Of a DNA stretch of 64,000 nucleotides, positions 24,958 through 25,602 are shown one piece after another. The stretch lies in assembly GCA_964016885.1 (NCBI GenBank), contig OZ024751.1:51522001-51586000 (forward strand), read 5' to 3'. Made by a program: the position numbers and the translations under genes. A model generated the notes under the pieces. It saw only the letters and a program-made list of their open reading frames with translations, searched no databases and had not been told where the DNA came from. Positions within the stretch are counted from its first letter, which is position 1. The number at the start of each line of letters is the position of its first letter. Source of the DNA: Eledone cirrhosa. Taxonomy: Eukaryota.

Positions 24958-25023
<66 letters not shown>

Positions 25024-25067
25024 AAGTTAAATAAAAGTCAAATGATTAAAATTTAGCTTCGTTTATT

Positions 25068-25122
25068 ACTGCTATATGTATTTCAGTGACAGCCATCTTT
25101 GGCTGTGACCTCTTCAGGCAGT
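25068..25122 (-). ncRNA. Type I hammerhead ribozyme (mirror copy in left arm)
   Basis: Reverse complement of 25353-25407. Confidence 0.8.
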
Positions 25123-25352
25123 TTGAATTAGTATGGTATAGACAAGTACATATGTTGTTTAGGTGTATGATATTGTCAATACTCTGATATGCCCAGTTCC
25201 TTGTTGGGTTGTTAATTCACTGGGGAACTGGAGTCATATGACTCCAGTTCCCCAGTGAATTAACAACCCAACAAGGAACTGGGCATATCAGAGTATTGAC
25301 AATATCATACACCTAAACAACATATGTACTTGTCTATACCATACTAATTCAA

Positions 25353-25407
25353 ACTGCCTGAAGAGGTCACAGCCAAAGATGGCTGTCACTGAAATACATA
25401 TAGCAGT
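25353..25407 (+). ncRNA. Type I hammerhead ribozyme
   Basis: actgc-CTGAAGA-ggt-c-acagcca(aaga)tggctgt-c-act-GAAA-tacata-TA-gcagt. Confidence 0.82.
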
Positions 25408-25553
25408 AATAAACGAAGCTAAATTTTAATCATTTGACTTTTATTTAACTTTATTTTACACTACTCCGGAGTAACCAAACCAACCTGCGCACTTCGTCGA
25501 GTGCTCCAGCCTGCATACTGAGGTGTTGGTATACAACCAACATAAACTCAAAA

Positions 25554-25602
<49 letters not shown>

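What the first reader, a model, noticed from the sequence alone, without database searches (positions are those of the whole stretch)
25017..25555. 442-bp loopless palindrome with mirror-image ribozymes on both strands
Seen: the arms meet without a spacer at 25237/25238, with complete hammerheads at 25353-25407 (+) and 25068-25122 (-). Inference: a transcript from either direction meets a sense ribozyme after the centre and can alternatively form a ~220-bp duplex that masks it. That would be a folding competition between self-cleavage and a Dicer/ADAR substrate, relevant if the host is a coleoid with heavy A-to-I editing. Arm identity implies recent insertion or gene conversion.
Basis: partly seen in the sequence, partly recalled or inferred. 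Interest (0 to 1): 0.75.

Follow-up and report, generated by a model that had tools for sequence, protein, structure and literature searches.

The report
Folded-back end of a jumping gene
The perfect DNA mirror and its two hammerhead ribozyme motifs are real, but they are two copies of the same end piece of a very common repeat, likely a Penelope-like retrotransposon that doubled back on itself while inserting, a pattern already described for that class, so it is probably an ordinary scar and not an RNA switch.

Summary
Observation confirmed: 221+221 bp arms, no mismatch, no spacer, with a type I hammerhead core on each strand. The junction also shows in raw DNA reads of three other samples, so it is not an assembly fold-back. 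The arm is the 3' end of a high-copy repeat family: 5'-truncated copies, two fixed 3' ends 96 bp apart, (TA)n targets, fold-back centres that differ between copies, and a native 8-bp palindrome at this centre. Three more such inverted hammerhead stubs lie in this window. This is the described architecture of Penelope-like element insertions (inverted truncated pLTR, one-sided tail; opposite-strand minimal hammerheads 100-700 bp apart). No RT/GIY-YIG gene was seen, so membership is likely, not proven. The proposed folding competition is not supported: in a read-through RNA the duplex is predicted to win outright (ribozyme stems p=0.000), and this copy carries a rare loop-3 change predicted to spoil dimer formation. 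Expression is untested. The scan noted the same pattern before in other genomes. New member of a known kind; low interest, with a modest mechanistic clue (shared rare allele in both arms, ~96-bp tail).

The parts
25017..25237 (-). Left arm: inverted, 5'-truncated copy of the element end (pLTR-like), ending at the family's short 3' end, joined to (TA)n
   Evidence: 221/221; short 3' end followed by (TA)n in 22 contigs of X1 (loose end behind 25440)
25238..25458 (+). Right arm: 5'-truncated element end (pLTR-like)
   Evidence: high-copy family, depth falling toward the 5' end
25234..25241 (.). Native 8-bp palindrome TCATATGA of the family; the fold-back centre (25237/25238) lies in its middle
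   Evidence: ordinary copies match down to 25234 and then run on in other sequence: 8 contigs in X2, 1 in X4, 2 in X6; one of 3 such 8-bp palindromes in 321 bp
25353..25407 (+). Minimal type I hammerhead motif; predicted cleavage between 25402 and 25403; G.U at 10.1-11.1; rare C at 25397 in loop 3
   Evidence: family alleles
25068..25122 (-). Mirror copy of the same hammerhead motif
25459..25555 (+). One-sided 'tail' (96-97 bp) ending at the family's long 3' end; three predicted small hairpins; shares a 10-mer with the tail of the neighbouring element
   Evidence: family end at 25554 followed by (TA)n: 13 contigs in X1, 304 reads in X22; fold; shared 10-mer reached by 17 of 5000 shuffles
23890..29044 (.). 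(TA)n microsatellite tract that is the insertion target; no target-site duplication can be read in it

Best explanation
This is a head-to-head duplicate of the truncated 3' end of a high-copy repeat family sitting in a (TA)n tract, likely a Penelope-like retroelement whose cDNA folded back and primed itself during insertion. Shown: perfect arms, one-sided tail, (TA)n flanks, a family with two fixed 3' ends, variable 5' ends and variable fold-back centres, a native 8-bp palindrome at this centre, and a rare allele (C25397) present in both arms. Inferred: the element's endonuclease nicked (TA)n; reverse transcription began at the distal end (25554), stopped about 320 nt later at TCATATGA, and the self-complementary cDNA end primed the second arm, which was joined to the target at the family's short end (25458). 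The hammerhead is a passenger of the element's terminal repeat (pLTR); in source elements it would work as a dimer or with protein help. In this copy it is predicted to be inactive: masked by the 221-bp duplex in a read-through RNA and weakened by its own loop-3 change. Any dsRNA made from it would be an incidental Dicer/ADAR substrate like any inverted repeat.
For: Family: 2462 contigs of X1, 227 of X6 and 6872 of 12.5 million reads of X22 lay on 353 bp, most only 88-99% alike. 3' ends at 25554 and near 25458, each followed by (TA)n. 5' ends joined straight to (TA)n at 25236-25243. Other inverted junctions in the family: before 25253 (X2, 1 contig), before 25261 (X24, 49 reads, inverted tail), and a loopless palindrome centred at 25283/25284 in organism B (X4, 1 contig). 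Same window: inverted stubs with hammerhead motifs at 26795-27240 (arms 168/170, ~90-bp one-sided tail, short end ~50 nt after the cleavage site as here 56), 29040-29435 (195/197) and 16561-17081 (221/227), all in (TA)n. Loop 3 is self-complementary in the family (T at 25397 in 3630 of 3655 X22 reads), the hallmark of dimer-type PLE hammerheads. Papers: PMC4209133 (dual min-HHRs ~100-700 bp apart on opposite strands; monomers inactive), PMC8557442 (inverted 5'-truncated copy, one-sided tail, (TA)n bias), PMC3846280 (218-bp pLTR, palindromes at inverted junctions read as self-priming), PMC11167929 (tail = stretch between two RT starts).
Against: No RT or GIY-YIG sequence was seen: the locus has no ORF, an 1836-nt contig that runs upstream could not be read, and no relative was found in the contig collections or in the Naiad/Chlamys/Hydra supplement. 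The tail is 96-97 bp, against 30-40 bp in the papers. The short arm ends at a family-wide fixed site, which simple snap-back does not explain by itself. PMC3846280 argues that self-priming on a sense template gives tail-to-tail, not head-to-head, repeats when it occurs at the RNA 3' end, so the step order is open. The conservation test on the hammerhead is weak (p=0.015 after post-hoc removal of structure-neutral changes, p=0.36 without).
Confidence: 0.82

Rival explanations
1. Same element, different step: two cDNAs were primed from the two nicked target strands at the two fixed start sites (25458 and 25554), both stopped near TCATATGA, and their self-complementary 3' ends annealed. This reading was taken from earlier scan notes. 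It is a variant of the best explanation, not of the identity.
For: Two family-wide 3' ends, repeated in the neighbouring family; PAc cleaves and extends both strands and starts RT at two sites (PMC11167929); unequal junctions such as the 24-bp spacer of the 26795-27240 element and the 25253 and 25261 junctions.
Against: Both arms carry C25397, seen in only 25 of 3655 X22 reads and 176 of 676,777 summed depth in X1: two independent cDNAs would share it only if it was already in the RNA, or after later gene conversion.
Confidence: 0.35
2. One reading: a functional RNA switch in which self-cleavage competes with a Dicer/ADAR duplex.
For: Geometry is as described. A transcript starting inside the left arm after ~25130 leaves the motif partly free (stem I p about 0.2). 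The junction is shared by several samples.
Against: In read-through RNA all hammerhead pairs have p=0.000 and the duplex is formed before the motif is made. This copy has G.U at 10.1-11.1 and a broken loop-3 palindrome. The architecture recurs in four families in 64 kb and with other centres in the family, as expected of a by-product. One paper search with all five terms returned a single unrelated review.
Confidence: 0.04
3. Artefact: a fold-back chimera of sequencing or assembly.
For: 100% arm identity, long (TA)n flanks, no contig or read spanning the whole locus with unique flanks.
Against: The 48-bp central fragment between the AATT sites at 25214 and 25258-61 appears in raw reads of three other samples (58, 30 and 29 molecules ending at 25214), with unrelated sequence ligated behind 25261 (agreement 0.37), so it existed as double-stranded DNA before amplification. 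Molecule ends fall at AATT sites, not at the CATATG sites 25235 or 25321. The one-sided tail and both ends match family-wide ends. Neighbouring palindromes keep mismatches.
Confidence: 0.04
4. A non-autonomous hammerhead element (retrozyme-like or SINE-like) mobilised in trans by a PLE, or a palindromic MITE-like unit that moves as such.
Against: No tandem monomers at this locus; copies run upstream of 25234, one contig for about 1750 nt; most copies are single-armed and centres vary, against a palindromic unit.
Confidence: 0.1

Closest known systems
Complex insertions of endonuclease-bearing Penelope-like elements (PMC3846280: passages and Discussion read; PMC8557442: passages and supplement searches)
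   Same: Head-to-head inverted 5'-truncated copy, arm of pLTR size (221 bp vs 218 bp for Pen2a_Av), palindrome at the inverted junction, one-sided tail, AT/microsatellite target.
   Different: No ORF and no partial tandem at this locus; tail 96-97 bp instead of 30-40; clade not assigned; no readable target-site duplication.
Minimal hammerheads (min-HHR) of metazoan PLE pLTRs (PMC4209133: parts 1-2 of 4 read)
   Same: Type I, stem I 5 bp, long stem II, short self-complementary helix III in the family; pairs on opposite strands 100-700 bp apart (here C3 to C3 241 bp).
   Different: G.U at 10.1-11.1 in this copy (G-C in 25-40% of the family); no extra base between 9 and 10.1; loop 3 broken by C25397; cleavage untested.
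Poseidon PAc of Anolis (PMC11167929: parts 1-2 of 4 read)
   Same: Two fixed ends defining a tail; AC-rich hairpin predicted near the distal end; AT-rich target.
   Different: In PAc the ORF starts inside the hammerhead and the tail is coding; here no open frame runs through the tail.
Animal non-LTR retrozymes (PMC7229834: passages; 10.64898/2026.07.22.740005: part 1 of 5)
   Same: Type I hammerhead, non-coding, low GC, linked to PLE pLTRs.
   Different: Those are head-to-tail tandems of 150-450 bp monomers; this is head-to-head with no tandem.
Naiad PLEs (PMC8557442)
   Same: (TA)n target, inverted copy and tail; present in Octopus.
   Different: Naiads are reported to lack canonical hammerheads; this family has a normally ordered type I motif; no motif of this family was found in the supplement.

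Membership tests
EN+ Penelope-like element | ORF with telomerase-like RT and GIY-YIG endonuclease | not testable with these tools
EN+ Penelope-like element | Inverted 5'-truncated copy joined head to head at the 5' end | tested here: met
   other inverted junctions in the family
EN+ Penelope-like element | One-sided 30-40 bp tail (two fixed 3' ends) | tested here: inconclusive
   Two fixed ends and a one-sided tail are present, but 96-97 bp long; ~90 bp in the neighbouring element
EN+ Penelope-like element | Minimal type I hammerhead in the terminal repeat with palindromic helix III | tested here: met
   family loop is self-complementary, T25397 in 3630 of 3655 reads of X22; this copy is a variant
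EN+ Penelope-like element | Frequent 5' truncation and microsatellite target | tested here: met
   depth gradient and (TA)n loose ends
EN+ Penelope-like element | Partial tandem forming direct pLTRs; target-site duplication | not testable with these tools
   No full copy in the window; TSD unreadable in (TA)n
Type I hammerhead ribozyme | Core C3-A9, G12-A14, A15.1-U16.1, H17 and three helices | tested here: met
   helix III only 2 bp, p 0.08-0.3 as monomer
Type I hammerhead ribozyme | G10.1-C11.1 pair | tested here: not met
   G.U in this copy; C in 1472 of 3681 X22 reads, 32% of X1 depth, 25% of X6 depth
Type I hammerhead ribozyme | Match to an Rfam hammerhead model | tested here: not met
Type I hammerhead ribozyme | Self-cleavage | not testable with these tools
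   needs a cleavage assay
Non-LTR retrozyme | Head-to-tail tandem monomers each with a hammerhead | tested here: not met
   no tandem at the locus; family-wide arrangement not seen
Naiad PLE | N-terminal EN; lack of canonical hammerhead | tested here: not met
   normally ordered hammerhead present; EN position not testable
MITE / foldback DNA element | Copies move as one palindromic unit with fixed termini and centre | tested here: not met
   most copies single-armed, centres and 5' ends vary

The most novel reading that the evidence does not exclude
This genome holds a group of PLE families with an unusually long (~90-97 nt) non-coding tail that carries a conserved hairpin (shared GTCGAGTGCT), and their loopless palindromes record the insertion chemistry: the centre falls on native short palindromes and both arms share a rare allele, pointing to single-template self-priming. 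With thousands of copies, counting mirrored private mutations against junction type would decide between fold-back and two-primer models of the unsolved PLE second-strand step.
Probability: 0.3. Interest if true: 0.4.

Novelty: new member of a known kind. Interest (0 to 1): 0.17.

Why it matters
As a single locus it matters little: it is one of many scars of a common retroelement. As a class, such stubs bear on how Penelope-like elements make their inverted ends, which PMC8557442 and PMC11167929 call unresolved. They are also a ready source of long perfect dsRNA if read through, which would matter for silencing of the family, but expression was not tested.

Tried and rejected
Rfam: no hit at gathering score in the window; 22 sub-threshold matches, mostly miRNA models that fit any hairpin. 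No whole genome is held. No RNA holder listed among 24 runs: no evidence on expression. X17 (Hi-C, organism D) laid 0 reads: no test. A generic hammerhead pattern gave 7 metagenome and 1 viral locus; none aligned to the three window elements and all look like chance matches. A family-specific 28-mer gave 0 in genome contigs and viral contigs. Motif searches in the supplements of PMC8557442 (line breaks in the FASTA text can hide matches) and PMC13282606 (no sequences held) found no match to this family. Joints in the RAD runs other than those discussed were set aside because that library shows ligated concatemers at AATT sites. High summed contig depth on the left-arm stub was set aside as ambiguous mapping. 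An NdeI-type library artefact was considered and rejected (no molecule ends listed at either CATATG site). An editing imprint in family copies was looked for and not seen (X22: 6 A>G against 6 T>C places, DNA only). Host identity was not tested; 'octopus-like' rests on recall of repeat content and on nothing run here. bioRxiv supplements are closed and subscription papers (for example the 2005-2006 PLE reviews) were not searchable; they may describe long tails or this family.

Full report
Observation. The window reads as described. Positions 25017-25237 are the exact reverse complement of 25238-25458: 221 of 221 pairs, no spacer. The right arm continues for 96-97 unpaired bases to 25555 and both ends meet a (TA)n tract that runs from 23890 to 29044. 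A hammerhead descriptor finds the motif at 25353-25407 (+) and its mirror at 25068-25122 (-), with the first base after the cleavage site at 25403. A relaxed version finds 8 motifs in the window, against 2 in total in 30 block-shuffled windows. The motif is minimal: stem I 5 bp, long stem II closed by G.U rather than G10.1-C11.1, helix III of 2 bp. Rfam has no hammerhead match.

Is the mirror real DNA? No whole genome is held, so I used sequencing runs. Of 24 listed runs, 16 hold part of the stretch and 8 hold half or more of its words; none is on record as RNA. I laid 8 of the 24. In three raw RAD runs from other samples of organism A, 58, 30 and 29 molecules end at the AATT site at 25214 in the left arm. 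In X23, 28 reads go on behind 25261 into unrelated sequence (agreement 0.37). This is the 48-bp fragment across the centre, ligated as double-stranded DNA, and it mostly carries this copy's minority allele at 25223 (55 of 74, 27 of 33, 24 of 30 reads). Listed molecule ends fall at AATT sites, not at the CATATG sites. The counts may include PCR copies, may come from more than one locus, and no record spans the whole locus, but a pure assembly artefact is unlikely.

What the arm is. It is the 3' end of a high-copy family: 2462 contigs of X1, 227 of X6 and 6872 of 12.5 million reads of X22 lay on 353 bp, most of them 88-99% alike; X17 laid none. Depth falls toward the centre, and some copies join (TA)n directly at 25236-25243: 5' truncation. 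The family has two 3' ends, each followed by (TA)n: at 25554 (13 contigs in X1, 304 reads in X22) and near 25458 (22 contigs in X1). These are the two ends of this locus. Ordinary copies match down to 25234 and then continue in other sequence (8 contigs in X2, 1 in X4, 2 in X6; one X2 contig runs on for about 1750 nt), so the 8-mer TCATATGA around the centre is native to the family; it is one of three 8-bp palindromes in 321 bp. Other copies turn back elsewhere: before 25253 (X2), before 25261 (X24, 49 reads) and, in organism B, as another loopless palindrome centred at 25283/25284 (X4, one contig).

The neighbourhood repeats the pattern. At 26795-27240 a related family has arms 168/170 alike, a 24-bp spacer, mirrored hammerhead motifs and a one-sided tail of about 90 bp; its short end lies about 50 nt after the cleavage site (56 here), and its tail shares a 10-mer with ours (17 of 5000 shuffles reach that). 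At 29040-29435 a third family has arms 195/197 alike with mirrored minimal motifs; at 16561-17081 a fourth has arms 221/227 alike and one motif at the junction. Four inverted hammerhead stubs in (TA)n within 64 kb point to a common by-product.

The ribozyme. In the family, position 25397 is T (3630 of 3655 X22 reads; 99.97% of X1 depth; 91% of X6 depth), which makes loop 3 self-complementary, the sign of a dimer-type hammerhead. This locus has C in both arms; its predicted self-duplex is +1.0 kcal/mol, against -3.2 for the intact loop of the neighbour. Position 25390 is C, giving the canonical G-C pair, in 25-40% of the family. Common variants inside the motif are mostly structure-neutral: 1 of 55 positions disruptive against 33 of 263 outside (p=0.015, a post-hoc class; 4 of 55 and p=0.36 if all are counted; 5 rows were not shown). 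So the motif is probably maintained in source elements, weakly shown, and probably crippled here.

The proposed competition. The full RNA folds at -415 kcal/mol and the hammerhead at -12 to -17. In the full RNA every hammerhead pair has probability 0.000, and in equilibrium snapshots of the growing RNA the arms are paired at each length from 25260 to 25420. The hairpin can nucleate 115 nt before the motif is made. Only a transcript starting inside the left arm would leave it partly free (stem I p about 0.2). This is masking, not a balance. A read-through RNA would be long dsRNA, as with any inverted repeat; expression, editing and host identity were not tested.

Mechanism. Shown: arms, tail, flanks, family ends, native palindrome at the centre, shared rare allele. 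Inferred: a PLE endonuclease nicked (TA)n, reverse transcription began at the distal end, stopped at TCATATGA, and the self-complementary cDNA end primed the mirror arm, which was joined at the family's short end. The shared C25397 favours one template (or later gene conversion). The fixed short end favours a second route, two cDNAs primed from both strands at two start sites and annealed through the 8-mer; I took that reading from earlier scan notes. One locus cannot decide between them.

Comparison with what is known. PMC4209133 (parts 1-2 of 4 read) describes minimal hammerheads in PLE pLTRs, reports dual motifs about 100-700 bp apart on opposite strands, and found no cleavage by a single motif. 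PMC8557442 (passages) describes the inverted 5'-truncated copy, the one-sided 30-40 bp tail and microsatellite targets. PMC3846280 (passages and Discussion) reports 218-bp pLTRs and palindromes at inverted junctions, read as self-priming. PMC11167929 (parts 1-2 of 4) ties the tail to two RT start sites, shows both strands cut and extended, and finds the ribozyme protein-assisted and dispensable for insertion in vitro. PMC13282606 (passages and one supplement row) gives PLEs 6.83% of the Octopus vulgaris genome, relevant only if the host is an octopus. The locus works like, and likely is, the shortest form of a PLE insertion; the defining RT and GIY-YIG gene could not be tested, and the tail is two to three times the published length. 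It is not a tandem retrozyme at this locus, not a Naiad by its hammerhead, and not a MITE. A search for hammerhead, ADAR, inverted repeat, retrotransposon and self-cleavage together returned one unrelated review; 'twin priming' with pLTR did not co-occur in the 15 listed papers.

Earlier notes of this scan. My PLE reading was stated before the first look-up. Notes on other genomes reached the same verdict; they are not independent evidence. They gave me PMC3846280 and the two-primer variant.

Verdict. Real, well formed, and already explained in kind: a new member of a known kind, interest 0.17. The remaining value is as one data point on how PLEs make inverted ends and on a long-tailed group of families.

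Noticed in passing
window 26795-27240: Related inverted stub: arms 168/170, 24-bp spacer, mirrored hammerhead motifs with intact palindromic loop 3, ~90-bp tail on the left arm.
   Followed up: yes
window 29040-29435 and 29436-29680: Third family: 197-bp arms with 2-bp spacer and mirrored minimal hammerheads (C3 at 29282 + and 29193 -), followed by a 25-bp-arm hairpin (29464-29515) and a single copy of the 26795 family with a hammerhead at 29583.
   Followed up: partly
window 16561-17081: Fourth inverted stub in (TA)n; arms 221/227; a minimal hammerhead (C3 16833, +) straddles the junction so only one strand has it whole.
   Followed up: partly
window 25459-25555 and 26795-26884: Both tails are ~90-97 bp, hold a predicted hairpin with the shared 10-mer GTCGAGTGCT and end in an AC-rich hairpin; a candidate protein-binding or RT start signal.
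   Followed up: partly
window 39539-40189: Copies of a ~190-bp dispersed repeat in tandem and inverted order around a perfect 80-bp palindrome centred at 39955; no hammerhead found; many more copies in the window.
   Followed up: no
window 22215-23576 and 29675-30532: LINE-type RT fragments with a PHD finger behind the RT domain (Pfam), flanking the (TA)n tract.
   Followed up: no
window 53410-56031 (-): 873-codon open frame with a LINE-type RT (RVT_1, E 5.5e-29).
   Followed up: no
window 9500-10673: About 1.2 kb of TTAGGG repeats inside the window, next to a 1.9-kb (TGG)n array.
   Followed up: no
window 20165-20364: 200-N assembly gap.
   Followed up: no
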